Source: Eukaryota sp. TZLM1-RC
Lineage: Eukaryota; Protista; Metamonada: BaSk clade
Direction: 5' to 3'
Length of the DNA: 64,000 bases
Assembly (NCBI GenBank): GCA_040285825.1
Contig: JAUPSS010000011.1
Location: forward strand, 558,001 to 622,000
Part shown: one piece after another, positions 13,910-62,117 of the stretch
Position numbering within the stretch: the stretch's first letter is position 1
How the letters are laid out: each line of letters opens with the position of its first letter
Made by a program: the position numbers and the translations under genes
The notes under the pieces: generated by a model
Seen by the model: the letters and a program-made list of their open reading frames with translations, nothing else
Database searches by the model: none
Told to the model about the DNA's origin: nothing

Positions 13910-16006
13910 ATGTTATTAGGAAAGAGTAAAATTGACCTTGATCCTCAGTGTATTGCAAAGTAATGGAAGGTTCCTGAGGATGATCCCTTATCAGATTTTT
14001 CCTTATCCCAAAGAAGAACTACAGTTACAGTTTATTGTCTGAGGGATACAAATGTAACCAAGAAATTATTTAATTTCTTTGTCATTACCAATTCTTGAAA
14101 ACTGTTAAACATAAACCTTTTGATGGTTATAAGGACATTCTGAAAACGTCATCAGAGATCCGAAAATGCTTGACGTGATCGATGAGGCAATAATTAGGTG
14201 TCAGGAAATTTCTATTGTTGGTTTAGAATTCATTTGTGGTTATTATTTGCATCTTTTTGGCTTAAACCCTAATACTTTACTAAAAATTGAAACGCAATTT
14301 TTTCGTGACGCATTTCATGTGGTCACGTCTCAAAGTGAGGAGGAAAGTTCTCTTAGTTCAAAGACAAAAACAGCTTTATACAAAATTCTCGTTGTGCGAC
14401 ATTGTTAAAAATTCTATCACCAACACTTTAAAGACAAACTTGTTCCAAAAATTTTATCAAAAAAAACAAGTAAGATTTTGCATTACACAATTGACAAACT
14501 TATTGTGAATTTCAAAAATAACATCCAGGAGCATTACCTTGATTACTTGGATCAGTTTGGAAGTTTATTGTACTTGTTCTTTGACGAATTCAAGGACGTT
14601 CTTGGTCCAAAGTCCTCATACCGATGCAATAATCAAGCTGCTGTTTTGGTTCAATGGGACACCATTTTAAAAATCGACGAGATTAAAAACACTGAACTTT
14701 ATTTAGAGAGTTCCAAGTACATCGTGACTAGCATTGAGACTGATGGAATAGCAGTATCATTCGTACAATCTAGAATTGACTTGAAAAAATACAAAGTAAC
14801 TGCATAAGAATTCTAAGAAAAAGAAAAATATACTATTGATGACCCCAGCATCAATCCTTCTGAATTCCAAGATATGACCCTTGCTGCTGCTGATCCAGGA
14901 AAATCTGATCTACTCTATTTTTCTGCCAATTTAGCTACTGGAATGACTCATTCAAAAAAACCTGAGAGAGATAAATATGTTCATTTCGGGTGCACTCAAA
15001 ATCAACGAAGATTTGAGTCGAAAAGTTCCAAATTCAAAAGAATAAGAGACAGCAAACGGAATGACTCTCCTATCACAATAAGTAACTCTACTGGTAGAGT
15101 GATTGATCTATCCAATTATGAACCATCTGAAGAGCAACAACAAAGAATGGATTTAAACAGCAGTATAATTAATCAAATGACTGAAAGAACAATTAGTTTA
15201 TTAAGAGGAAAAGAACCTCAAAAAATCAATATTCTCCATGAAATTGATTACTCATCAAATTTGAGAAATAATGAACAAAAAACCTAAATCTGTAGCAGAA
15301 TGGGAAGCAACATTATCCCAATTTAATTTCAAAAGCTGCAGGTTTGACAGATTTATGGAGTATATTAAACAAAAGAAATTTTGTGAATAGTATTGTTGGT
15401 CAAGTCTATCATCAAAAAAGATTTAGGAAACTAAGATGAAGGGCTGAGATTAATCGCACAAGATCTGAGGCGATAATGATTCAGAGATTCAAATCAGTAA
15501 TTGGTGATCCCAGCCAAGTAGTTATTGGAATCGAAGACTGGGAACAACGAAAACACATGAAATTCAAAGAACCTACCAAAGGAAAAGGTTTGAGAATTCT
15601 ATTGAAAAAGGCTCGTTATAAGGTCTTTTTAATTGATGACTTTCGAACCAGTTGCTGTTGTTTCAACTGTAAGAAAGCGGAGAAGACAGTTGAAACATTC
15701 CAATGGTGCAGAAATCCTAGGCCATGGAAGAGGCACGAGATTTCTATTCGTCACGGGATTACCATGTGTAAATCATGTGAAAGTTTGTGGATTAGAGATT
15801 GAAATGATTCGCTGAATATGTTGGCAGTGATGGAAGCACATGTAAAAGGTGGAGATAGACCGAAATACCTGCAGAGAGTCAAGGTTGACAAAGGTTCAAA
15901 GAAAAAGGTATCAAGGATAAAATCTTCAACTTCCCAAAAACTCAGTCCCTCTACATCGGTGTAAAAAGGACACTTATTTCATTGTTATAGACATCATCTG
16001 TAACGA
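13910..16006 (+). mobile_element. Fanzor1 element, family 1 copy 1 (disrupted ORF; left end undefined)
   Basis: IETDGIAVS; RuvC-I AADPGKSDLL; GxxDWEQRKHMKFKEP; RuvC-II LIDDFRTS + CCCFNC; CKSC; RuvC-III WIRD*NDSLN; many stops and frameshifts. Confidence 0.85.
15940..16006 (+). ncRNA. Putative 3' part of the Fanzor omegaRNA scaffold / element right end
   Basis: Hairpins GGTGT-loop-ACACT and GTTATAGA-CATCA-TCTGTAAC (15984-16004), both conserved in copy 2 with different loops. Confidence 0.55.
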
Positions 16007-16441
16007 ATGGCTTCCATCGAGAAATCTCGTCTCACAGGCAGACCCATAATCCGTAATGTCAATGGAGACTGCTTTGTCGTCACTCCAACCGCCCAAACGC
16101 ACATGAATTCTATAGTACCTCCTCCAAAATCTGAGACACAACGTCAGTTCACACCACCTTCTGCTACCTCAGCTGGGGGTAAGGTTCAAGAAAAGCCTTT
16201 AATTCCATATAATCCGAACTGCTTACGTAGTATGGCAAAAATCCATGACCCACCCAAACGCTCTTGCCATGACACCAACCTTCCACGAGGAGCTCCCTGC
16301 CCATTAACCTGTACAGACAAGAAACGATTTATTACTTCTAAAATGATGAGTGAAAGTCAGAAGCAACAACCAACAGGTTTCGGTAATACCGGAATCCTCT
16401 CGCAACACACAAAGTTTATTCGTAATTTACAGAACTCTTAA
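16007..16441 (+). CDS. Hypothetical 144 aa basic, Pro-rich protein
   Basis: Clean ATG-TAA ORF with host-gene-like composition; no family recognised. Confidence 0.65.
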   Translation: MASIEKSRLTGRPIIRNVNGDCFVVTPTAQTHMNSIVPPPKSETQRQFTPPSATSAGGKVQEKPLIPYNPNCLRSMAKIHDPPKRSCHDTNLPRGAPCPLTCTDKKRFITSKMMSESQKQQPTGFGNTGILSQHTKFIRNLQNS

Positions 16442-21090: not shown

Positions 21091-21876
21091 ATGCTACTGA
21101 GCTCTTCCACTGTGGTTCTACTTTCTCTCGTCTCTGTTTCTCTCTTTGTTTTCCTGGTTCAGTTGTTTTCTCCTCATCGTTTTGCTGTATACCGTCGTTC
21201 TCTAGGAGGTATTCTTGCAACTTTTCTTATTTTGTCCAGCTATTCCACAGCTCTCAATCATGTAAATTTCTTCAACCTCCTTCTCAGCACAATCCAATCC
21301 AGCTTTAGACTGTCATCCATTTTCATCCCTGTCTTTATCACCTCTATTCCTTATTTTCCTGATCTCATTGTGTATATTTCCCAATGTGTTGGGACCGGGA
21401 AACTCAAATTTATTAATTTTCTCAGTTTTAAAAGTCTCTACCCCCTTATTCTCCGCAATGTGGTCTTTGCACCCATTCTCGAAGAGTTGTCCTTTAGGTT
21501 GCCTTTCCTAGTGATCTTTAACTCTAAACTAATCACTTCTCGTTCCTTCCTAATAATTCTTTCTTCAGTTCCTTTCTCTGTTGCTCATTTCCATCACTTT
21601 TTGTTCCCTTTGCTGCGTTCCTTTGTTTTTGGTGGCCGTTATTCCCCTGGAATGACATTATCTTCTGCATTTTTCCAACTTTGTTACACTTTTATATTTG
21701 GTGTTTATGTTTCGTTTGTCTGTTTCAAATATGGAATTTTTGGCGCTATATTAACCCATTCTGTTGCGAATTTTGGTTCTATACCCAGTAGTTTTTTGTT
21801 AAATAAGTTTTATTTCTTTTTGTTTATTATTTGTTTATCTGTATGGCTTTTATTTGTAATCTATTGTCTAATTTAA
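21091..21876 (+). CDS. RCE1: CAAX prenyl protease 2 (Rce1)
   Basis: RNVVFAPILEELSFR, FSVAHFHH, QLCYTFIFGVY and HSVANFG motifs; hydrophobic. Confidence 0.9.
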   Translation: MLLSSSTVVLLSLVSVSLFVFLVQLFSPHRFAVYRRSLGGILATFLILSSYSTALNHVNFFNLLLSTIQSSFRLSSIFIPVFITSIPYFPDLIVYISQCVGTGKLKFINFLSFKSLYPLILRNVVFAPILEELSFRLPFLVIFNSKLITSRSFLIILSSVPFSVAHFHHFLFPLLRSFVFGGRYSPGMTLSSAFFQLCYTFIFGVYVSFVCFKYGIFGAILTHSVANFGSIPSSFLLNKFYFFLFIICLSVWLLFVIYCLI

Positions 21877-25692: not shown

Positions 25693-28596
25693 TCAAGCAG
25701 ATACGAGCTGACTTAATGGTAATGAATGATGGGCTACCGAGAGCACCGTTGTAGCTTTTCTTATAAAACTAGCAACTATTGATAAGGAAAATGTGAATAG
25801 AATGGCAGGGTAAAGCCCTAGAGTTGAATAGAAAAACGAAATACAAAAAATTTCAAAAATAGCAAAGTCAAGAGATTTCCCAAGAAAACTTCTATTTTTG
25901 ATTGATGATTCCGTGGATTGTACAAGATTTGATTGATTGTGAATTGATGGACTTAATCTGAGCCATGATTCCACAAATGATTGCTTGATTATATGGTTTC
26001 CGGTTATCAACTCATCAATCCATTTGATTAATTGCCCATTTGCTTTTGATTGTACTTTTCCCAACTGCTCAAAAGAGTTCAATTCTCGAGAATCACGTTC
26101 GTTCTTGTTGAAAATGATTGACCGCTGTTGAAGAGCACGTGATCTAGCACGTGAGGCTGCTGCCCAAGAACGGTCAAAAATAGATCGATCTTGTCCAGTT
26201 AAAAAAACCTCAAATATTTGGCAATGATCATCTTCACCAAAACCAACTTTGTTGAGAGAAACACCTCGTTTAGGTAACGTTCCTCGACTTTCCCCAATCA
26301 AAAATGATGTCAGTTCTGAGCTGGTGACGTCAGACCTTCCTGCAACACTTCTGCCGTGAATATAAAAACCAGAGAAGGGCTCATCCAGTACAAGCAAAGA
26401 GATGTTGGTTAGTGGTAATAGATCAAGAAATCTGTTCAAGGGCGACTGATACACCCATCTATTCAAAGGAATTTTGACTAAATAGATAATAATGAATGAA
26501 AGGAGATATACAAAAGAGACAGTCCCTAGCAACAAAATAAATGATTCAGGAGCCAAATCAGAAACGGAAAGTGATGACAAAGACCAACGTGATAGTTGAA
26601 AATACCCCAGAATAAGGGAGGTCAAAAAACAAAGGGAGAAGGGATCACATGCTCTAATTGACTGTAAACTTGCCCAAATTTTGGCAATGTACACACTGCG
26701 CCAACAGGAAGGATTTTCAGAATTTTCCCAGTCAACTAAAAAAATGTCACTATAAAAAGAGGAAATGCAGGTCAAGAAAATTCTAATTGATGACGTGATC
26801 AAACAAATCAAAAAGACATTATAAACAAAAGAAAAAGATTCTTCATTTGGTAACAAAAGTACAATGATTCCTTGAAATCGAAAGACAACAAGGTAAAAAA
26901 GACTAACTAAAAGTAAAAAAACACCGAAATAGTTTGAAATAATTCTACAAATAGAATTGACTCCATTAAAGATGGAGTGGGAGAGAAAGGAATTGTTGAC
27001 GTGGCGTTGGTTGTAAACATAAAGATCCACTCCCCATCTTACTAGGCAAAGAGCGGTAATAGACCACAAGAGACCATTGGTAAGGGAAAGTAAAGTGGAA
27101 GAATCGGAAACTGTGTGGGATGAGAAAGTCGTGATTGGGAAGCTGCGACTAGAAACACGATTGTCAGTCACCAATGACGTGATGGGAGACAAGCTTCCCT
27201 TGTCGAGTCGGTCAAAAATGCCACTGGTCAATTCAATTCCTTCAGAATTCTCCAGACTAGACGTAATTACCTCTTCATACTCAATAGAAAGAATGGGAGG
27301 TAAAAGCAGAACTTTGCCCAACGACTGAGGAGTGGTTCTAAACATTAGGTCAACTTTCTTGGCGAAACGAATGACTGTGGGCGTGGTGGAAGAAGAAGTT
27401 GATCCAAAAACATGGTCAAAAAGGAAGAATCTTCTTGAAAGTGTCAAAAATGGGGAGGAAAGGTCATAATTATCATCATTATTGACCATTCTGACAGGAA
27501 CAGGAAGAAACTCATCATTGTAAACCAAAAACATTTCAGCAAAGAAAGGTAAAGGACTAGAACTAATCAAATCTAAAAGATCAAAAGTACACGTAATGTC
27601 CACGTCATTCCCAAAGACTTCCCAAGACTGATGCTTGACTTTCCTTGACTGTGACGTGGCGGTAACCCCACAAAAACTCAACAAACTAGAATCAGAGTAA
27701 CCCTTAAACTCACCATCTAATGCCCACAGACCCAATCTCAAATCAAGATTACTTCCAATGCCCAACACAGGCCAATCAGATGATTCCCTCAGAGCAGAAG
27801 CAGGGTCTTCATAAGTGACAAAGGGAAAATCATCAAGTTCAGAGATGGACTCACAGAGGGATGATTCAGAAGAAAAATAGGTGAGAGAGCAAAGGTTGAG
27901 GAGAGTGTTGCAAGGGGCCAAGGAGGATGAATTACCAACAAAAGAAGGATTCTCGAGCAATGTTTTGCATTGTAGATAAGCAGGACGGAAGAGCTGACGG
28001 ACAAGAAAGGAATCTACTGTGATTGGATTAGAAGAAGTTGAAGGATGAAAGGAAAGTTGGGAATGTGATGGAAACCTGGAGAGAACAGAAGTCAGATCAG
28101 CTTGCGAGAGGCAAGAAGAAAAGGCAAATGAATAGTCGGAAGGGCATTGACACTGGTCTTCAATAATGGAGAGGCCTCCACCATTGGAAGAGCAAGGAAG
28201 GCAGTGTTGGCTAGAGGGTGATGGTCTGACTGTGTTGGGAGGACAGGGTGAGCAGATGAGGGTTGAAAGGTTGGAGACTGTGAGGTAATCTGTTAAAGAG
28301 GGACAAGTACACTCTCCTTTGTTATAATCAGCCTCACATGGTAAACAAGATGCTCTATCAAGTGAAACAGCAGTAGTGTTGAGAGCACAAGAAACACAGG
28401 ATAGTGCTCCCTCATCACTACTAACAGTTGCATGGCCAGGGTAACAGGAGCATATAGAACCATCACCTAAAGAACCATCAGGACAAGTTTCACACTTTAA
28501 ACTAATAGGATGCAGATATTCATCTTCACTGCAAGTTGGACTAGCCAAAGAATGAAATAAGAGGATACTGAATGTGCAAAGCAAGAGCAGCTTCAT
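25693..28596 (-). CDS. TMEM67: Meckelin (ciliary transition-zone protein)
   Basis: Signal peptide, Cys-rich N-terminus, RRFFLFD, DIFLVDWE, WRSVYIA and GFYIHGRS motifs, multiple TMs. Confidence 0.92.
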   Translation of the reverse strand: MKLLLLCTFSILLFHSLASPTCSEDEYLHPISLKCETCPDGSLGDGSICSCYPGHATVSSDEGALSCVSCALNTTAVSLDRASCLPCEADYNKGECTCPSLTDYLTVSNLSTLICSPCPPNTVRPSPSSQHCLPCSSNGGGLSIIEDQCQCPSDYSFAFSSCLSQADLTSVLSRFPSHSQLSFHPSTSSNPITVDSFLVRQLFRPAYLQCKTLLENPSFVGNSSSLAPCNTLLNLCSLTYFSSESSLCESISELDDFPFVTYEDPASALRESSDWPVLGIGSNLDLRLGLWALDGEFKGYSDSSLLSFCGVTATSQSRKVKHQSWEVFGNDVDITCTFDLLDLISSSPLPFFAEMFLVYNDEFLPVPVRMVNNDDNYDLSSPFLTLSRRFFLFDHVFGSTSSSTTPTVIRFAKKVDLMFRTTPQSLGKVLLLPPILSIEYEEVITSSLENSEGIELTSGIFDRLDKGSLSPITSLVTDNRVSSRSFPITTFSSHTVSDSSTLLSLTNGLLWSITALCLVRWGVDLYVYNQRHVNNSFLSHSIFNGVNSICRIISNYFGVFLLLVSLFYLVVFRFQGIIVLLLPNEESFSFVYNVFLICLITSSIRIFLTCISSFYSDIFLVDWENSENPSCWRSVYIAKIWASLQSIRACDPFSLCFLTSLILGYFQLSRWSLSSLSVSDLAPESFILLLGTVSFVYLLSFIIIYLVKIPLNRWVYQSPLNRFLDLLPLTNISLLVLDEPFSGFYIHGRSVAGRSDVTSSELTSFLIGESRGTLPKRGVSLNKVGFGEDDHCQIFEVFLTGQDRSIFDRSWAAASRARSRALQQRSIIFNKNERDSRELNSFEQLGKVQSKANGQLIKWIDELITGNHIIKQSFVESWLRLSPSIHNQSNLVQSTESSIKNRSFLGKSLDFAIFEIFCISFFYSTLGLYPAILFTFSLSIVASFIRKATTVLSVAHHSLPLSQLVSA

Positions 28597-30143
28597 TCTT
28601 ATAGATATTATCTATAACTATGAAATAAGTGTCAATAGAGACACTGAAGGACTGAGTCTTTTCTGATTTATTTTCTCCTCAATACATTCTTTTGAACCTT
28701 CAACAACCTTGGCTTTTTGTTGGTATACCGGTCTATCTTCACCATTTACATGTGCTTCCATCACTGCCAACATATTCAGCGAAGAATTTCAATCTCTTTT
28801 CCACAAACTTTCGCATGATTTCCACATGGTAAGCCCGTGACGAATAGACATCTCTTGCATCTTCCATGGCCTAGGATTTCTGCACCATCGGAATGTTTCA
28901 ACTGTTTTCTCCGATCTCTTACAGTTGAAACAGCAGCAACTGGTTCGAAAGTCATCAATTAAAAAGACCTTATAACCAGCTTTTTTAAATAGAATTCTCA
29001 AACCTTTTCCTTTGTTAGGTTCTTTGAATTTCATGTGTTTTCGTTGTTCCCAGTCTCCGATTCCAATAACTACTTGGCTGGGATCACCAATTACTGATTT
29101 GAATCTCTGAATCATTATTGCCTCAAATCTTGTGCGATTAATCTCAGCCCACCACCTTAGTTTCCTAAATATTTTTTGATGATAGACTTGACCAACAATA
29201 CTATTCACAAAATTTCTCTTGTTTAATATACTCCATAAATCTTTCAAACCTGCAGCTTTTGGAATTGAATTGGGATAAAGTTGCTTCCCATTCTGCTACA
29301 GATTTAGTTTTTTTGATCAGTGTTATTCAAATTTAATGAGTAATCAATTTCGTGGGGAATATTGATTTCTTGAGGTACTTTTCTTCTTAATAAACTAATT
29401 GTTCTTTCAGTCATTTGATTAATCATACTGCTGTTTAAATCCATCCTTTGTTGTTGCTCTTCAGATGGTTTATAATTGGATAGATCAATCACTCTACCAG
29501 TAGAGTTACTTATTGTGATAGGAGTGTCATTCCGTTTGCTGTCTCTTATTCTTTTGAATTTGAAACTTTTCGATTCAAATCTTCGTTGATTTTGAGTGCA
29601 ACCGAAATGAACATATTTATCTGTCTCAGGCTTTTTTGAATAAGTCATTCCTGTAGCTAAATTGGCAGAAAAAGAGTAGATCATATTTACATGGATCAGC
29701 AGCAGCAACGGTCATATCTTGAAATTGAGAAATGCTAATGCTGGGTGATCAATACATTTTTCTTTTTCTTTGAATTCTTATGCAGTTACTTTGTATTTTT
29801 TCAAGTCAATTCTAGAATGAATGAATGATACTGCTATTCCATCAGTCTCAATGCTAGTCACGATGTACTTGGAACTTTCTAAATAAAGTTTCGGGTTTTT
29901 AATCTCGTTTATTTTCAAAATGGTGTCCCGTAAAACAAAATCAGCAGCTTGATTATTACACTGATAAGACGACTTTTGACTAAGAATGTCCTTGTATTCG
30001 GCAAAGAACAAGTCCAATAAACTTGTCTTGTCAATTCTGATATAGGAGGGAAAACAAGAATTTTGAAAAGGCAGAGCATGAAAGAGTTTGCTCTCATCAC
30101 CTTCTAAATAATTATTAAAATAGAACATGGCACTTAAACACAA
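28597..30143 (-). mobile_element. Fanzor1 element, family 1 copy 2 (5'-truncated, disrupted)
   Basis: Collinear with 14560-16006: IETDGIAVS, AADP, GIGDWEQRKH, LIDDFRTSCCCFNC, WKRD*N; same terminal hairpins (28599-28617 and 28628-28645). Confidence 0.87.
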
Positions 30144-42504: not shown

Positions 42505-44634
42505 CAATTACTGGGATGTAAAATGTTCCAACTTCCTGATGATGCTTATCTTAGTCCATATCATGGTGGTTTAGGGTGGTCGAAGGCTTCTATTCTTACC
42601 TCGTGTGCTTTTGTTGGTGGATGCAGAAATGCAATATTTAATTTTTCTAAAGATTGGCCGATTGGGAAGATTTATTAATGACAACGCAAAGTTCTACTCT
42701 TTTTGCATCAAATTAAGAAATTTCAAAAAATGTTGTAGAAAATGGAGTGGATGCTTTCCTAAATCATTCAATGACAATATTCCTGAAACTTTAGTAACTC
42801 AAGTTCCCTCTGTTTATGGACTTTTGTTAAAAAACAATGAATGGCTTCTAAACATGCGTTTTCGTTGTTTTCTGTGGCCAAACAATTTGCCCAATCATTT
42901 AACTTGTAAATGTGGTAAACTTCTTTTGTTTACTCATCTTTTGAACTGTAAACATTTCATTACTATTAGAAGCAAAGTGCATAATAACGTCAGGGACCAA
43001 ATTTATGTAATGTGCAAATCATATCGAGTAGATTCCTTTTTAGAACCGCTGTTATCAAAATTAATTCTTGATGATCCCAATATTGATAGTACGCGTTACA
43101 ACAGAGCTTCTATGGGTCTGACTAGAGGTGATCTAGTTGTTCCTGGTTCAAATGGTAGTTTTACTATTTTGGACGCCATGTCTATTGACCCTTGTAATTC
43201 CTCTAACGAACAACTCATTAACTCGGATGTGAATAATCCTCTTCTTGCAGGCGAAAAATATAAAATTGCTAAATATGCGAAACCCATTTCCTCGGTTAAT
43301 GAAAATTCTCATGCCCAATATAATTTATGTCCATTTGTTTTTTCTTTGCTTGGATCTCTAGGTAAGGCTGGTATGGCTTTCCTTGACGATTTTGTTGTAG
43401 TTGTAAAGGAAAGAACTGGAAGAATTTTCAATCGTGTTTACTGGCAAAACAGGATTGTATTTTCTATTTTTAAGGGATTGGTAACACTAATTTCTGATTC
43501 ACTATCTTCTTTTGGGAAATTTTCTGAATCTTTAGCGATTAATTGTTTTGATGTTGGGGAGGCAGGTTTTGAGGATGTGGAGTTTTAATTGTGTATTTCA
43601 TATTTGTTGTTGAATAAAAATATTTAAAATCAAAAAAAATATTCCTGAAAAGAATCTTTTAAATTTAAAATATACTCTTCGAACATTACAGAAACGATTG
43701 ATTAGAATGCATGAAAAAGATCTTTATAATAATATATGCAGCTCGGCTGTTTTAAATCAAGATCTTCACTCATTGTTATTGGAAAAGGGTGTTTGTGAAA
43801 ACAAGTCGTCAGATTCATCACTTTTTGTAACTATTGTACCACGAAGATTTGGATTGTGTGCCACTAATGAAGCATTTGTAACAAAAATGAGATTATATTT
43901 GAATATCCCCATTAATCAATTATCATCAAAAGAAGGATGTATTTGTTCGAATTCACCTCAACTCACTTTGGGCCATGCTCTGAATTGTTCTAAATTGATA
44001 ACTTATCGTTCTTCATTACATGATGCTGTTAGAGACACTGTTTTCAATATGGCACAAACTGCAAGAATATCGTGTATCAAAGAGTCCCTGCTGAAGGAAA
44101 CACCTTCTCTGAATAATTTTGGTTCTGATGATAGAGGTGATGTATACTGTGATTGGATTGATAATTCTGAAGCTATTGTTGACTTTGTCTCATGTAATGT
44201 TGCAAATGATACTTTGGTTCACAGAAGAAAACTTAATCCTGTGGCTGCTCTGGATTTTAAAGCAAAAGACAAACATAGAAAATATGATAAAGATATTGAA
44301 GAGGCTGATGTTGATAGAAATACACAGCTGGTTTTTATTGCTTTCCCATTTTCGATAAATGGAAGATTATCAGTTGAAGCAGAAACTTTTTTGAATGACT
44401 GCCAAAAAATGGTGCAAGAAAAAACAATGAAAAGATTTGATATTTTTTTATGGCTTTCACGCATTCAATTTGCCATTATTAATAGATTACCACGGTTTTT
44501 CAATCGAATAAGAGCAGCTTTAGCTAGACAGCAAGCAAATCAAGATTTTGTAGAGGAAATCTTGGTTCAATTATAGTCGTCCCATTAGTTATGAGTTAAT
44601 TTAATTAAGTGTGCAAATTCAATAAATAAAAAAA
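42505..44634 (+). mobile_element. Subfamily A non-LTR copy split by a nested subfamily D insertion
   Basis: HGGLGWSKAS...SFNDNIPE| resumes as |KNLLNLKYTLR after 43650. Confidence 0.87.
42789..43637 (+). mobile_element. Subfamily D non-LTR copy nested in subfamily A
   Basis: TSD AATATTCCTGAAA at 42776-42788 and 43638-43650; near-identical to 23394-24926. Confidence 0.9.
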
Positions 44635-44708
44635 TTGTAAGAATATGAACCAAACTAAAGTGATTCATTATCGACATCCTCCATCTCTACAACTTTTCAA
44701 CATCCCGA

Positions 44709-45076
44709 ATGACTTCTCTTCCTGTATCTCTATTTAGTTGCCCCAACGACATCCAAACTATACTGAAAGCTGCCACTTGTCCCTGTATTGTGTCTGGAGA
44801 AACTTTGGCAACTGATCAGGGTCGACAACCAACCGTCTGTGATTGCCTCATGTCTGGTCCTCAGGCTGAATACTTTTTGAGGTATTTATTCAATTTTTTA
44901 ATCACAGGCAACGTCTCCGTGAAGCACATGGTGTGCCAACAGATACACTTCATGATGTAGCTGCTGCTGTTTGCTGTCCCTGTTGCTTCATTATGCAAAA
45001 CCACCAATTGGTCGTATGCCAGAGCTCTGCTCCTTCGTCGTCAGCTACAATGTACGCACCTATTGCTGACATTTAG
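44709..45076 (+). CDS. PLAC8/cornifelin-family Cys-rich protein; intron 44882-44907 (26 nt)
   Basis: LFSC..D, CPCIVSG, LR/QRLREAHG, D....CCPCCFIMQ after splicing. Confidence 0.82.
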
Positions 45077-46453
45077 TAGCTTTAGTTTTGTCACCAGTCC
45101 GCAATCTTGTTTATTTTATACAATTGATTTATTTATTTTTCCTAAGATTAAAACTAATTTTATAATCAAATACAGTGCACTGTTTGTTAACACAGACAAC
45201 CAGTCATGGTAGATAACAATAACCAAAACGATAGCAGCACTAAAAACCGATATAAAGAATTTCTTTTCTGGAAATGAATATAATATTGAAAGAAATGACT
45301 GCAAATGAAACACTTGTAGCGACCATGAACGTGGTTGCCTTTACTGTTGGTGAAATGCTTTCTGATGACTTCACAGTAGTCAGCAACGTTCCTTGAAGGA
45401 GAGGGTTGATTCATGTTGAGAACAAAGTAAGTAATAAAGTGGAATTATTTTTTGTGCGTCTTATATAAGTGTAACTCAAATGAAGGCAAAAGCTCACTTT
45501 TGAAGAGCGTGTTAAGTAAAAAATTTGGTAGTTTTTATTTTTATCTCACGGATTTCAAATAGCTTCAATATTCGAACAACCTTGAAAATTTTTCAATTTG
45601 ACGCAAAAGAGTCAGGGTTCACAGATTTTCATAACCATTGAGTTGATTCGTAGAGAGTGAACAAACGATACCAGAGGTGCAAGGGTGTATATTGAAAACT
45701 GATGGTAATACAAGTGAAGACAGGAGGAACATCTTCTATGGAGGAAAGATGAGTAGAAAGAGGGTGAAGAGGGTGAAGTAGAGAGACAAGGTAATAATAA
45801 GTATTCAGATCTCTAGTTTCAAGACAAGAAGTGCAGCTGAAAGGGGTGGCACAGCTTAGGATGGACGATCTGCAATAGGCTCGAGTTTAGACTCAAGAAT
45901 ACAGAATAGAAAGAATAGCCAGTAGTGTCTCTACAGACTGTCTTTTGTAAGTCTATTTTATGGGATTCAATGTGTGAGTGCACTAAACGAAACCTATAAT
46001 CGCTATAATAGAAAAGCCAACAGATCCACCAAGATCACTGGCGAACTGAGATATAGTTGAACGAGGAGCGAAAGGTTCTTCGTCAAAGAAGGAAAGAAAT
46101 GGGAAGAAAGAAACGGGTGTAGTGACTTCCCTTGGCAACATGTTTGTTCTGAATACAGGAATTAAATTGTGAAATTTTATGAATTTTTTGAATCTACAAA
46201 CACCCATGATTAAACGAACAACTGCTTTGACTAACAACAATTTCGTCAAATTTCGCATCAGTTTATTAATTTTAGGAAAGAAAATGCTTAAAGCATGTCC
46301 AGTATCTATTATAAATCTGTATATTTATCAGTTGTGCATGTTTCATTGTTTTGCGGATGTAAGGAGTTGAAAATACACCAAATTTTAAAAGTAACTGAAA
46401 CTGAGAAATCAATCATTTTTGATTGTCTGCACATTCCGTTTTCAATAAGGACT

Positions 46454-48268
46454 ATGCAGTCATGGACACGTGCCTGCTCCCTTCATCAGTTCTTTGAGCG
46501 GCCAGTGTGTGATTACATTGATGGACAGCTGACCAAGGTTTCCACCATGGCTGACCTCGGCAGTTTGCTGGCCAGAGTTTTTGCTGTGCGCTTCCCTGAA
46601 GACAGTCATTTCCTGACTCAGCATCAATTCTGGATCCAGTGTCTTGACTTTGTGGCGGTCTCTAAGCCAAAAGTCAGACATCCATTCAACAGACCTGGCA
46701 AGGGTCATATTTATGAGAAGCTCGAGCGAATCTCTACATCATGGCCGTTTGCTGTCTTGTTCTTGTCAAGAACAGGTCATAATCATGCACTACCCACTAC
46801 AACAACTGGTGGATGCAAAGTGCCGCCAGCTGGAAGGCAACTACCAGCAGCTCCTGACTGATGGTCTTGTGTCGTGGAAGCTTAACTTCTTCCGCTCGTA
46901 TGCAGTAGGTTATAACTGCCCTGCGCCAGCCACTTATGCTGGCTCTGTTCTTCACAACAGCACGAACTTTCGTGAACCTCTTCTTTCTTGCTTCAGCACA
47001 CACCATACCATGGCTCTTACTCTGTTTAACTTCTTAGTTGGTGATCCTCAAAGGTACAACACTCTTCTTTCTTCTCGAAGAGTGACTCTTAATCAAGAGA
47101 ACAGTACCTACATCTTTCGTTGCGGTTTAACTATCCAAAACCACCTAAAGCAAGCCTTTCCACATACCTTTAGACGACCTAGACTCACTCCCATCGCTAG
47201 TTTGAAGCCTGCTTTTGTTCCCTTTTCCACATGGGTTCTCAACCATTTTATCCCCAAAAACACATCACAAACTTGTAAAACCCTTATTTATTGTTTAAAA
47301 CAAAAGCTAATGACTACACCATGTCTTCTAATGGTGATAGTGTCCGTATAACTTTCAAACCGCACCCCAAAGCAACACGAGTGAGATTGTCCAGAGAAGC
47401 CTTGAGTAATAAGAGATCCAGAGGGGAACTTGACTACTACGAAACCACTCGGAATAGAAAACATACCTTGCAAGCCAAGGTTGAACGGCCAAGACCTCGC
47501 CAGAAACCAAAAGCTACTGAGTGGCAGGCACCTGATGACCAAACGGAAATGGTGTTCTGGGCCATCGACCCCAACCACTCAAATCTATGTGGTTCCAGTA
47601 TTGGAACACGTTCAGGGCCAACCGTTTCCAATATCTTCTTGGCACCAAAGCAACGAAAAATCAATCACTCCGCTTCACTGACCCACTGATCAATAGATGT
47701 TAATGACGTGCAGAAATTGAACCATTATCTGCTTGAAATATCAACTATCGGTGACTATAAGGACTATGAAGGTAATAAAGTAAGACGATCATTGCTAAAG
47801 CAGCAATGATACCTGAGTGCTCGAAAAGCATTGAGGAGAAACACATTTGACTTCTTTAGAAGAAAACAGTAAAGATTCAGCTCAATTATCAACAAAGTGA
47901 AAAAATTTGCAGACGGTCGAGAAGTAAAGGTGTGGTTTGGCAATGGAGGTGGTGGTACATCACCTCAAAAAGTGAAAACTCCACGTAAGGCACTACTCAA
48001 GTTGTTACAATGTTCATTTGCTAATGTGAAGATCGGAGATGAATACATGACATCTGCAAAGGTGAACTGCTGCAAGATGCTGCACCAAAAGATCTATAGA
48101 GAAGTTGATGGTGAAGGTAAAGTTCACAACGCCTATTTCAGTTGTCCGGAATGTAATCAAGTATGGTCTAGAGACATTTCTGCATCACTAAATCAGCTAG
48201 AAATTGCAATTAGTGAGCACTACTATGGAACAAGACCAGAAGCGTTCCAGAGACCACAAAGAAACTAG
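46454..48268 (+). pseudogene. Fanzor1 endonuclease, family 2 (frameshifted)
   Basis: N-terminal TRACSL..., SNGDSV, RuvC-I WAIDPN, VWFGNG, RuvC-II GDEYMTS..CC, CPEC, RuvC-III WSRDISASLN, RPEAF tail. Confidence 0.82.
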
Positions 48269-48495
48269 CTTCAAAGCTACGTATTGTTCTAGAGGAGAAA
48301 TGGGCTCACTGAGATTGGTGGCCAATTATTCGAGGATTCTAGAACATCTGTGGACGATCTCACCAAGGATGAAAGTTCTTGGAAGTTTGAATGATGCTTG
48401 ACGAAAGTATGCATTTCAAATGAAAACCACAGACTATTTCGGTTCAATTCATATAATGGTCAATAATTGACATGAAAATAACCATAATATTTATG
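48266..48495 (+). ncRNA. Putative Fanzor omegaRNA scaffold
   Basis: Stems TGTTCTAGA/TCTAGAACA (48285/48338) and TCTGTGG/CCACAGA (48347/48427), the latter enclosing two GAAA-capped hairpins; further hairpins at 48459-48471 and 48483-48495; lies directly after the Fanzor stop. Confidence 0.68.
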
Positions 48496-48510
48496 TTTTA
48501 AGATTTTCAC

Positions 48511-48990
48511 ATGGTTTCCTTTATTTGCTCAGTATGTAATGCCACTGTCAAAAAGCCCAAGGTTAAAAACCATCGTTGTCACAACTGTACTTTTTGTTGT
48601 TTAGATTGTCAACAAGAGTTTAATCACAACTCAGTTCACTCTCACAATTCATGTATATCAGAGGCAGAGAAATACCAGGGTGCATTATATAAAGACAAGA
48701 AGAAGCGTAAGGCGGTACAATCTGATCAGCCTGTAGTAAAAGCTCCACGTTCTTGCAGCTCTTCAGCCTCTTCCTCAAAAACAAATACTCACTATCCTCA
48801 ACAATGTCATCATTCTTGCTCACTATTGGAGGACAGGATTGTCGAACTCATTCGCAGCAACTCTGACAGTACTCTCACCATTAAGAAAATTTCCAAGATG
48901 CTTCGTCCTCTCATCAAGGAGTGTGTCACCCATTCGAAAACACTTTCCTTGACTGATGAAACTGTCTCCTTGAGCGACAAATCATGTTAA
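48511..48990 (+). CDS. LYAR: LYAR-type C2HC zinc finger nucleolar protein
   Basis: MVSFICSVCNATVKKPKVKNH...CLDC...HNSCISEAEKYQG. Confidence 0.88.
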   Translation: MVSFICSVCNATVKKPKVKNHRCHNCTFCCLDCQQEFNHNSVHSHNSCISEAEKYQGALYKDKKKRKAVQSDQPVVKAPRSCSSSASSSKTNTHYPQQCHHSCSLLEDRIVELIRSNSDSTLTIKKISKMLRPLIKECVTHSKTLSLTDETVSLSDKSC

Positions 48991-49333
48991 ATACAGTGAC
49001 ATCATGTGGCTCATCTACTCCACTTAGATCAATTAGTTTTTATTTATTGTATTTCACTTTATCTACATTTAATTAGTTTTCTTTAATACATTTTTGGTAC
49101 TACCTACACCTAGTGGTTCAGCTCTTTTTAACCTCACATTAACTAGGGGTTATTCGCTGTTCTAGTGGTATTTGATTAGGTTCATTCGCTTTGTAATGGT
49201 CATTATTCCCATTTTTTTCGAAAGTACAGTAGCTTTACATGTTACTCAACATTTGATTAGCATATTTGTCATCATAAACACATGCATTTCCGTATTTAAC
49301 AACTTTGATATTTCAACAAATATTTTAAAAAAA

Positions 49334-49405
49334 TGCTCGTACTGAGGATTGAACTCAGGACCTTTTCCTTACGAAAGAACTGCTCTACCACTGAGCTATG
49401 CGAGC
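49334..49405 (-). tRNA. tRNA-Thr(CGU), with stem mismatches
   Basis: GCTCGCA TA GCTC AGTGGTA GAGC A GTTCT TTCGTAA GGAAA AGGTC CTGAG TTCAATC CTCAG TACGAGC A, followed by an oligo-T Pol III terminator. Confidence 0.88.
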
Positions 49406-61177: not shown

Positions 61178-62117
61178 AAGTATATACTTGGGCTAAAAGT
61201 TGTTTCAGTAATTCTAGTAGTTGTGTTTTTGTATTAGACAATAAATAATATCAAATTACCATTTGAATATTATTGCCCAATAATTGTAGCTTGTGAATTA
61301 CAATTTCTATTATATGTAACAAAGTTAATTGTGGCCATGCAAAGTGCTCAATGATTTAATTTTGTCACAAATCAAGTTGAATCGCCAATTAGATTGCATG
61401 TTTGATTTCACATATAGCAATTTTGTGCATGATTTTATTCCTTTGAATGAATCTGTTATCATGTGCAAAAGCCATCACATTGAAGTTGAATTTAATTCTA
61501 GGTTAGTGTGATCAAGGTTGTTAATTTAGCGACTGTTGCTGACTGTAATAAATTAGAAGTGATATTTTGCAGAAATGTGCAAAAACAAAAGCACAAACAA
61601 AAAGCATAAAGAACTTTCATCCCAGCTTGGTCATGTTTAACTTGTGAAATACCACTAATATCTTATCCTGTTTCTTGGTTCTGAAACATTAGAATAATTA
61701 GTGAGAATATTTTGAAGGTTTCAAACAATTGTTATAATAGAGTGTAGGAAAGGGTATAATTTTGAATGTTTGATACAATAGAATTGTTTCAAGCTATTCA
61801 CAAATAATAAACAGAAGATCGTTACAATTAGGGGTAGATAACGAAAATTGCGCACTCGAGGGATTTGATGTTGTTGATGCGTGTATTTAGTTCTAATTTA
61901 AGGTAAAGTTTTGTGTTTCGTCCTTATTGCTTCAACTTAAGGTTGGAATAGAAAAAGATCTCACATCTTTTTTTAAAATTGGTGAACATTTCTCAAACTC
62001 CGAGGTCTAGAACCTTGGTTGATTACGCAAAGTCAATCACAAAACACTTCGAAAATTTACTGCCTTCAGTCTTTTTGCAACAAACCAGGGATAAAATCTA
62101 GGCAACAACCATTTTAT

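What the first reader, a model, noticed from the sequence alone, without database searches (positions are those of the whole stretch)
46454..48530. Second, unrelated Fanzor with a large structured omegaRNA-like region pointing into the LYAR start codon
Seen: a divergent Fanzor1 keeps all three RuvC acidic residues (DPN, DEY, RD) despite frameshifts. It is followed by about 230 nt of nested stems: 9-bp and 7-bp closing helices, two GAAA tetraloops, and further hairpins. The last hairpin, CATAA-TAT-TTATG, ends 15 nt before the LYAR ATG at 48511. All three Fanzors in the window therefore sit head-to-tail immediately 5' of a host gene. Inference: a shared preference for the TSS/start-codon region, with a guide covering the LYAR 5' UTR and ATG. 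The exact right end cannot be fixed from one copy.
Basis: partly seen in the sequence, partly recalled or inferred. Interest (0 to 1): 0.78.

Follow-up and report, generated by a model that had tools for sequence, protein, structure and literature searches.

The report
Decayed Fanzor1 ending upstream of LYAR
This is a broken copy of a multi-copy Fanzor1 transposon-nuclease family from a single-celled anaerobe, followed by a predicted 165-base guide-RNA scaffold; other copies stop matching 77 bases before the LYAR start codon, so the guide likely does not reach that codon, while intact copies elsewhere are candidate new RNA-guided DNA cutters.

Summary
Real Fanzor1, wrong right end. The ORF (46454-48268) keeps D/E/D but has two frameshifts and three in-frame stops. 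An intact natural relative (P0033, 87-95% identical) folds like SpuFz1 (Foldseek E 1e-13, Z 20.4; Fanzor2 Z 10.4). Four contigs of other copies, all from one sample, leave the window sequence at 48431-48433. The 77 nt before the LYAR ATG fold no better than shuffles (z -0.08), and the CATAA hairpin is chance-level. An 11-21 nt guide would be 48434-48454, well short of the ATG. A gap of this size is common here: 6 of 18 other genes have a repeat 55-160 nt upstream. Start-codon abutment does hold for the other Fanzor family in the window (2 copies here, a third in a database gene model). Earlier scan notes report similar behaviour for CMe-1A in a red alga (unchecked). The family forms a clade found only in three Skoliomonas assemblies, with intact copies. 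The transposase, left end and TAM are unresolved. New member of a known kind.

The parts
45639..46453 (+). Left arm of the element, no recognisable gene. Probably cut short on the left in this copy.
   Evidence: Overlapping contigs of other copies tile 45639-46672; X1 and X3 carry the same extra letters before 45639; 0 Pfam hits in 6 ORF fragments; antisense part recurs in gene model P0056, 75% over 73 aa
46454..48268 (+). Decayed Fanzor1 ORF (intact form 609 aa); frameshifts near 46797 and 47272, stops at 47687, 47807, 47870
   Evidence: tblastn of P0033: 93%, 87%, 95% in three segments; indels against other copies; codons
47567..47569 (+). RuvC-I Asp (D377 of P0033)
47939..47941 (+). Gly (G501), inferred to stand at the canonical RuvC-II Glu position (rearranged site)
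   Evidence: nearly invariant in a 43-sequence alignment; interpretation from PMC10530073 passages
48041..48043 (+). Alternative catalytic Glu (E535)
48068..48154 (+). Zinc-finger-like TNB region, CC-x23-CxxC variant
   Evidence: Pfam PF07282 E 2e-5; C545, C569, C572 nearly invariant
48173..48175 (+). RuvC-III Asp (D579)
48266..48433 (+). Predicted omegaRNA scaffold: short hairpin over the stop codon (48266-48279), long hairpin (48285-48346), three-way junction (48347-48433) with two hairpins. Its last base is the element's right end. The true 5' start is unknown.
   Evidence: z -4.04; other copies end 48431-48433; the two listed substitutions keep pairing and an insertion falls in a linker
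48434..48454 (+). Predicted guide of this copy (host flank, first 11-21 nt)
   Evidence: inference from the right end and native guide lengths in PMC10432273; unstructured
48434..48510 (+). Host DNA upstream of LYAR, 77 nt, holding the CATAA-TAT-TTATG hairpin (48483-48495); not part of the element
48511..48990 (+). Host LYAR-type zinc-finger gene (159-aa ORF)
   Evidence: Pfam zf-LYAR E 6e-11

Best explanation
This is a broken, probably left-truncated copy of a multi-copy Fanzor1 element whose right end lies at about 48433 and whose last 165 bases are predicted to form the omegaRNA scaffold, so the guide would be the next 11-21 host bases and would stop more than 55 bases short of the LYAR start codon. 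Shown: the fold class, the lesions, the right end, and intact relatives. Inferred: intact copies make a 609-aa RuvC nuclease that loads a scaffold plus flank RNA and cuts an element-free version of that flank beside a TAM. Repair from the occupied allele would then keep or spread the element, as proposed for TnpB. This copy cannot make the enzyme, but its scaffold looks intact and could be loaded in trans. It likely moved with an unidentified transposase supplied in trans, and its position upstream of LYAR is likely what a compact, repeat-rich genome tolerates, not a guide aimed at the ATG.
For: AlphaFold model of P0033 (pLDDT 89.5): the 7 PDB hits at E<=0.001 are all Fanzor1 structures; Z 18.3-20.4 for Fz1 against 13.7 for the next chain and 10.4 for Fanzor2. 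Right end: 3 X1 contigs leave at 48433 with flank agreement only 0.63, and a 1382-nt X2 contig covers 47273-48431 then runs on unlike; X1 depth is 72-85 at 48385-48398 and 0-2.4 beyond 48504. The 7-bp closing helix ends on 48433. In other copies 48346 A>G turns U-A into U-G, 48368 G>A turns G-U into A-U, and an AAT insertion lies in an unpaired linker. Gene model P0040 reads through the stop into the same scaffold letters. 35 of 232 stored proteins are >=75% identical to P0033 (itself and the window's own fragment included), and 3 are full length with all three acidic residues. Baseline: 6 of 18 other genes have a repeat within 160 nt upstream.
Against: The right end rests on four contigs from one sample (X1 = X2); 45 loose ends and 371 differences were not displayed; X3 does not cover the end. 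No RNA data were seen. Only two substitutions bear on the fold, neither two-sided. A 120-nt sliding scan gave only z -1 to -2.8 around the scaffold, so the strong z depends on choosing the helix boundaries. No TIR, TSD, TAM or transposase was found. Nuclease activity is untested. Repeats in this window lean to gene 5' ends (6 of 18 against 1 of 18 at 3' ends, rough ATG calls), so an active upstream bias is not excluded.
Confidence: 0.75

Rival explanations
1. The family actively prefers promoter-proximal DNA, landing some tens of bases upstream of host start codons, so its guides systematically point at core promoters or 5' UTR starts (a weaker form of the first reader's idea).
For: This copy is 77 nt upstream of LYAR in the same orientation; the other Fanzor family abuts ATGs in 3 of 3 copies seen; unchecked scan notes report similar behaviour for CMe-1A.
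Against: One mapped site only; unrelated repeats show the same 55-160 nt spacing at 6 of 18 genes; the two families are separate clades; the two displayed 30-nt flanks cannot be assigned to genes.
Confidence: 0.2
2. The element runs to the LYAR ATG, with a 230-nt omegaRNA ending in the CATAA hairpin and a guide over the 5' UTR and start codon.
For: The hairpin and its 15-nt spacing exist; the other family does end in a hairpin at an ATG.
Against: Other copies diverge at 48431-48433; 48434-48510 folds like shuffles; such hairpins occur in 62% of shuffles; published native guides are 11-21 nt.
Confidence: 0.03
3. The family spreads as RNA, retrotransposed in trans by the abundant non-LTR elements, which would give fixed 3' ends and variable 5' ends. 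(This concerns mobility only and is compatible with the nuclease reading.)
For: Sharp right end, lost left end and no TIRs; the window is about 45% repeat, mostly non-LTR-like 3' fragments (label recalled from motifs, no Pfam hit); PMC10530073 reports Fanzor1c near LINEs.
Against: The non-LTR fragments end in AATAAA and A-rich tails, while this element ends cleanly at a helix with no tail; no TSD at this copy. One-ended Helitron2-type movement (CRe-1/2/3) or later deletion explains the same pattern.
Confidence: 0.12

Closest known systems
SpuFz1 of Spizellomyces punctatus (Fanzor1; PDB 9cez, 8gkh; PMC10432273)
   Same: Same size class and fold over the whole length (Z 20.4, rmsd 4.6, 503 aligned); D/E/D RuvC and TNB; multi-copy family with intact and decayed members; structured region between stop codon and right end followed by a variable flank.
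   Different: 15% identity; predicted scaffold about 165 nt against 75 nt; no 30-nt TIRs or TA TSD found here; TAM unknown; CC-x23-CxxC zinc motif.
GtFz1 of Guillardia theta (PDB 9cer; PMC11423790 section 5)
   Same: Fanzor1 fold (Z 19.1, rmsd 6.1, 459 aligned); long (150-nt) omegaRNA with four stem-loops, close to the four hairpins predicted here.
   Different: 12% identity; GtFz1 has Asn at the third catalytic position where this family has Asp; RNA folds were not compared directly.
TIR-less Fanzor1 families CMe-1A (Cyanidioschyzon merolae), MCi-2/MCi-5 and CRe-1/2/3 (PMC3627910)
   Same: About 3-kb elements with a long left part, no TIRs, conserved 3' ends and variable or truncated 5' ends, no own transposase.
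   Different: No sequence link tested; CRe elements are Helitron2-derived with TSDs in truncated copies, none seen here; host is a metamonad.
Second Fanzor family in this window (14561-16009 +, 28594-30024 -)
   Same: Fanzor1-like RuvC, decayed, upstream of a host gene on the same strand.
   Different: Separate clade, 38-58% identical to widespread metagenomic DUF8286/TNB proteins; its shared sequence runs right up to host ATGs.

Membership tests
Fanzor1 | C-terminal motif D-X(125-275)-[TS][TS]-zinc finger-X(5-50)-RD (PMC3627910) | tested here: met
   D377, T538-S539, C544/C545-C569-C572, R578-D579 in P0033; same codons in the window; the first Cys pair is adjacent (variant)
Fanzor1 | Rearranged RuvC-II: Gly/Pro at the canonical Glu, alternative downstream Glu (PMC10530073) | tested here: met
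   G501 and E535 nearly invariant in 43 sequences; spacing 34 residues against about 45 in the paper
Fanzor1 | Fz1 size and fold (about 600 aa, enlarged REC), closer to Fz1 than to Fz2/TnpB | tested here: met
   609 aa; Fz1 Z 18.3-20.4, TnpB 12.2, Fz2 10.4; Foldseek E 1e-13
Fanzor1 | Multi-copy eukaryotic mobile element with a defined right end | tested here: met
Fanzor1 | Conserved structured non-coding region between ORF and right end | tested here: met
   z -4.04; shared by other copies up to 48431-48433; covariation support thin
Fanzor1 | omegaRNA expressed and bound by the protein | not testable with these tools
   no RNA holder listed
Fanzor1 | TAM-dependent RNA-guided DNA cleavage | not testable with these tools
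   needs a bench assay; this copy's ORF is broken
TIR DNA transposon host (Mariner, MuDR, hAT, IS4-like) | Terminal inverted repeats and target-site duplication | tested here: inconclusive
   none found, but the true left end is missing from this copy
Helitron2 host | Asymmetric TIRs, hairpins at both ends, RepHel partner | tested here: inconclusive
   3' hairpins present; left end absent; no RepHel among 57 window ORFs scanned
Fanzor2 / IS607-like | TnpB-sized protein with serine recombinase partner | tested here: not met
   609 aa and Fz1-type fold; no resolvase hit in the window ORFs or left arm

The most novel reading that the evidence does not exclude
A still-mobile, TIR-less Fanzor1 lineage confined to Skoliomonas inserts by preference just upstream of host genes, so that its omegaRNAs, including those of dead copies like this one, aim intact nucleases at host core promoters. 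With the second family, which lands exactly on start codons, two separate Fanzor lineages in one genome would have converged on gene starts.
Probability: 0.2. Interest if true: 0.7.

Novelty: new member of a known kind. Interest (0 to 1): 0.36.

Why it matters
Few Fanzors are characterised. This is a very divergent clade (12-15% identity to solved Fz1 structures) from metamonads, for which two full-text searches found no paper pairing Fanzor with the group. It has naturally intact ORFs in two assemblies and a scaffold whose right end is now mapped, so it can be tested directly without any reconstruction. Its hosts come from hypersaline, alkaline lakes (PMC11603281), which might give unusual salt or pH tolerance (speculation). 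The claim that made the finding exciting, a guide over a start codon, fails here and belongs to the neighbouring family.

Tried and rejected
No whole genome was held. Look-ups of the DNA around P0001 and P0033 found no record, so no second locus was read in full. No RNA holder listed. No relatives among JGI metagenome or viral contigs by peptide pattern (453 and 434 pattern matches, none confirmed) or by end motifs. Sequence search of PDB gave 0 hits; Rfam 0 hits at E<=1; NCBIfam nothing for this family. TIR and direct-repeat searches between the right end and 44600-46500 gave only chance-level matches. No TSD and no second copy of the guide in the window (best other match 2 mismatches in 15). 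An alternative genetic code for the three stops was rejected: other copies carry sense codons there. A weak match of the P0033 N-terminus to a non-LTR ORF (E 0.009; 0 of 300 shuffles) was not repeated by 4 of 4 relatives and was dropped. The left-arm antisense ORF has one hit, a probably chimeric gene model. Flank letters of other copies do not occur in the window. The bacterial promoter scan is not meaningful for this host. The tree is the quick version; the careful search did not finish. Run X4 laid nothing, no evidence either way.

Full report
Observation. The ORF starts at 46454 and stops at 48266-48268. The codons for the three acidic residues are at 47567, 48041 and 48173. Pfam finds the TnpB zinc-finger domain (E 2e-5) and, at 48511, a LYAR zinc finger (E 6e-11). 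Against the intact database protein P0033 the copy aligns in three segments at 93, 87 and 95%. It lacks 11 nt near 46797 and 4 nt near 47272 relative to other copies and has stops at 47687, 47807 and 47870, so it cannot encode the enzyme.

The family. A protein search returned 28 hits among 2880 candidates, all from the assembly named Eukaryota sp. TZLM1-RC, which PMC11603281 (passages) identifies as Skoliomonas litria, an anaerobic metamonad. The window is from this organism or a very close relative (inference). Of 232 stored proteins, 35 are at least 75% identical to P0033; split gene models may inflate that count, and only 15 of 24 members of the main cluster were listed. Three are full length (609 aa) with all three acidic residues. 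A profile search found 153 proteins at E<=0.001. Of the ten I looked up, six came from the other two Skoliomonas assemblies, one cluster with seven 592-aa members, and four from metagenomes. In a quick tree of 40 C-terminal regions the 8 Skoliomonas proteins of this lineage form one branch (SH-aLRT 100, long stem), apart from the other Fanzor family of the window (no bootstrap, no solved Fanzors included).

Class. The AlphaFold model of P0033 (pLDDT 89.5) matches only Fanzor1 structures at E<=0.001 (7 hits; best SpuFz1, E 1e-13). Structural Z is 18.3-20.4 for SpuFz1, GtFz1 and PpFz1, 13.7 for the next chain, 12.2 for TnpB and 10.4 for mimivirus Fanzor2. The best viral-library and Atlas hits are 600-800 aa giant-virus proteins. 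G501 and E535 fit the rearranged RuvC-II described in PMC10530073 (passages), and the motif of PMC3627910 (passages and section 12) is met with a variant first cysteine pair.

Right end. Contigs of public runs were laid on 45600-49200. Three X1 contigs leave the window sequence behind 48433, and their flanks agree only 0.63, so they are different loci. One 1382-nt X2 contig follows 47273-48431 and then runs on unlike. X1 depth is 72-85 at 48385-48398 and 0-2.4 beyond 48504. Limits: X1 and X2 are one sample, 45 loose ends were not shown, X3 has no cover here, and depth is not copy number. The end coincides with the fold: 48266-48433 has z -4.04 (0 of 300 shuffles) and its last helix, 48347-48353 with 48427-48433, closes on the terminal base. 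The two displayed substitutions in this region keep pairing, and an AAT insertion lies in a linker. A sliding 120-nt scan is weaker (z -1 to -2.8), so part of the strong z reflects boundary choice. The stretch 48434-48510 has z -0.08, and a perfect 5-bp hairpin occurs in 11 of 16 upstream stretches and in 62% of shuffles. One GAAA tetraloop is predicted; the second is a minor alternative.

Guide. In SpuFz1 the omegaRNA is a conserved scaffold plus 14-15 variable nt beyond the element end, and native guides of three orthologues are 11-21 nt (PMC10432273, parts 1-2 of 8 read). Known Fz1 omegaRNAs are 75-150 nt (PMC11423790, passages and section 5). The guide here would be 48434 to at most 48454, at least 56 nt short of the ATG. 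It may overlap the LYAR promoter or transcript start, which was not mapped.

Left side. Contigs of other copies tile 45639-46672, so the element is at least 2.8 kb; no single contig spans the arm. X1 and X3 show the same extra letters before 45639, so other copies go on further and this one is probably truncated. No TIR, TSD or transposase was found. The TAM therefore cannot be read.

Is there a preference for gene starts? With first-Met calls that ignore introns (several are rough), 6 of 18 other host genes have a repeat within 160 nt upstream (55-160 nt), against 1 of 18 downstream. LYAR's 77 nt falls inside that range, so it is not Fanzor-specific, although repeats here may lean to 5' ends in general. 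The other family is different. Its two copies (89.6% over 1449 nt) share sequence up to the ATGs at 16007 and 28596 and end in a hairpin that pairs with the ATG. A third copy, gene model P0234, runs through the same end directly into a Met that begins an akirin-like protein (Atlas score 0.93). Two earlier scan notes describe the same for CMe-1A (unchecked). The start-codon signal is thus real for that family on three copies, and not shown for this one.

Mechanism. Shown: fold class, lesions, right end, intact relatives. Inferred from characterised Fanzors: intact copies make an RNA-guided DNA nuclease whose guide is each copy's right flank. Inferred from TnpB (10.1101/2023.03.14.532601, search listing only, plus recall): cutting the empty site favours retention or spread of the element. 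This copy could still donate a guide in trans. The mobilising enzyme is unknown; a DNA transposase or Helitron-type partner in trans is favoured over retrotransposition because the end has no A-rich tail, unlike the neighbouring non-LTR fragments.

Novelty. Searches for Fanzor with metamonad (0 papers) and with Skoliomonas, barthelonid or Fornicata (16 listed, none with both Fanzor and Skoliomonas or barthelonid) found no description; a search on Fanzor insertion preference listed nothing relevant among 20. The genome paper (10.1101/2023.05.03.539051, passages) does not contain the word. Supplements were not opened. Verdict: a new, divergent family of a known kind; the special claim fails at this locus.

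Noticed in passing
window 14561-16009 (+) and 28594-30024 (-); protein P0234: The second Fanzor1 family ends exactly at host start codons: shared sequence runs to the ATGs at 16007 and 28596 (meckelin), ending in a hairpin whose CAT pairs with the ATG; a third copy fuses to the Met of an akirin-like gene. This is the stronger lead and deserves its own follow-up.
   Followed up: partly
whole window: About 45% is repeat-derived, mostly 5'-truncated pieces of several related non-LTR-retrotransposon-like families ending in AATAAA and A-rich tails (label recalled from motifs; no Pfam hit).
   Followed up: partly
genes at 21091, 22837, 31163, 42444, 44709, 56252: Non-LTR fragments lie 55-160 nt upstream of 6 of 18 host ATGs but within 160 nt of only 1 of 18 stops, hinting at a general bias of repeats to gene 5' regions (rough ATG calls).
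   Followed up: partly
proteins P0012, P0044, P0052: At least two further subfamilies of the same Fanzor lineage (42-53% identity) exist in the same assembly; their ends differ from this one after the RuvC region.
   Followed up: partly
protein P0056: Gene model joining the antisense left arm to Cys-rich repeats and a DVEANPGP motif that resembles a 2A ribosome-skipping peptide (recalled), possibly the start of a non-LTR ORF.
   Followed up: no
window 45980-46286: One X2 contig jumps back 307 nt here, suggesting a tandem duplication within the left arm of another copy.
   Followed up: no
window 44709-44960 (+); 45260-45430 (-); 49334-49405 (-): A PLAC8-like gene (E 2e-4); a short relic resembling 61979-62056 (tblastx E 0.004); a tRNA-Thr(CGT) gene.
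   Followed up: no
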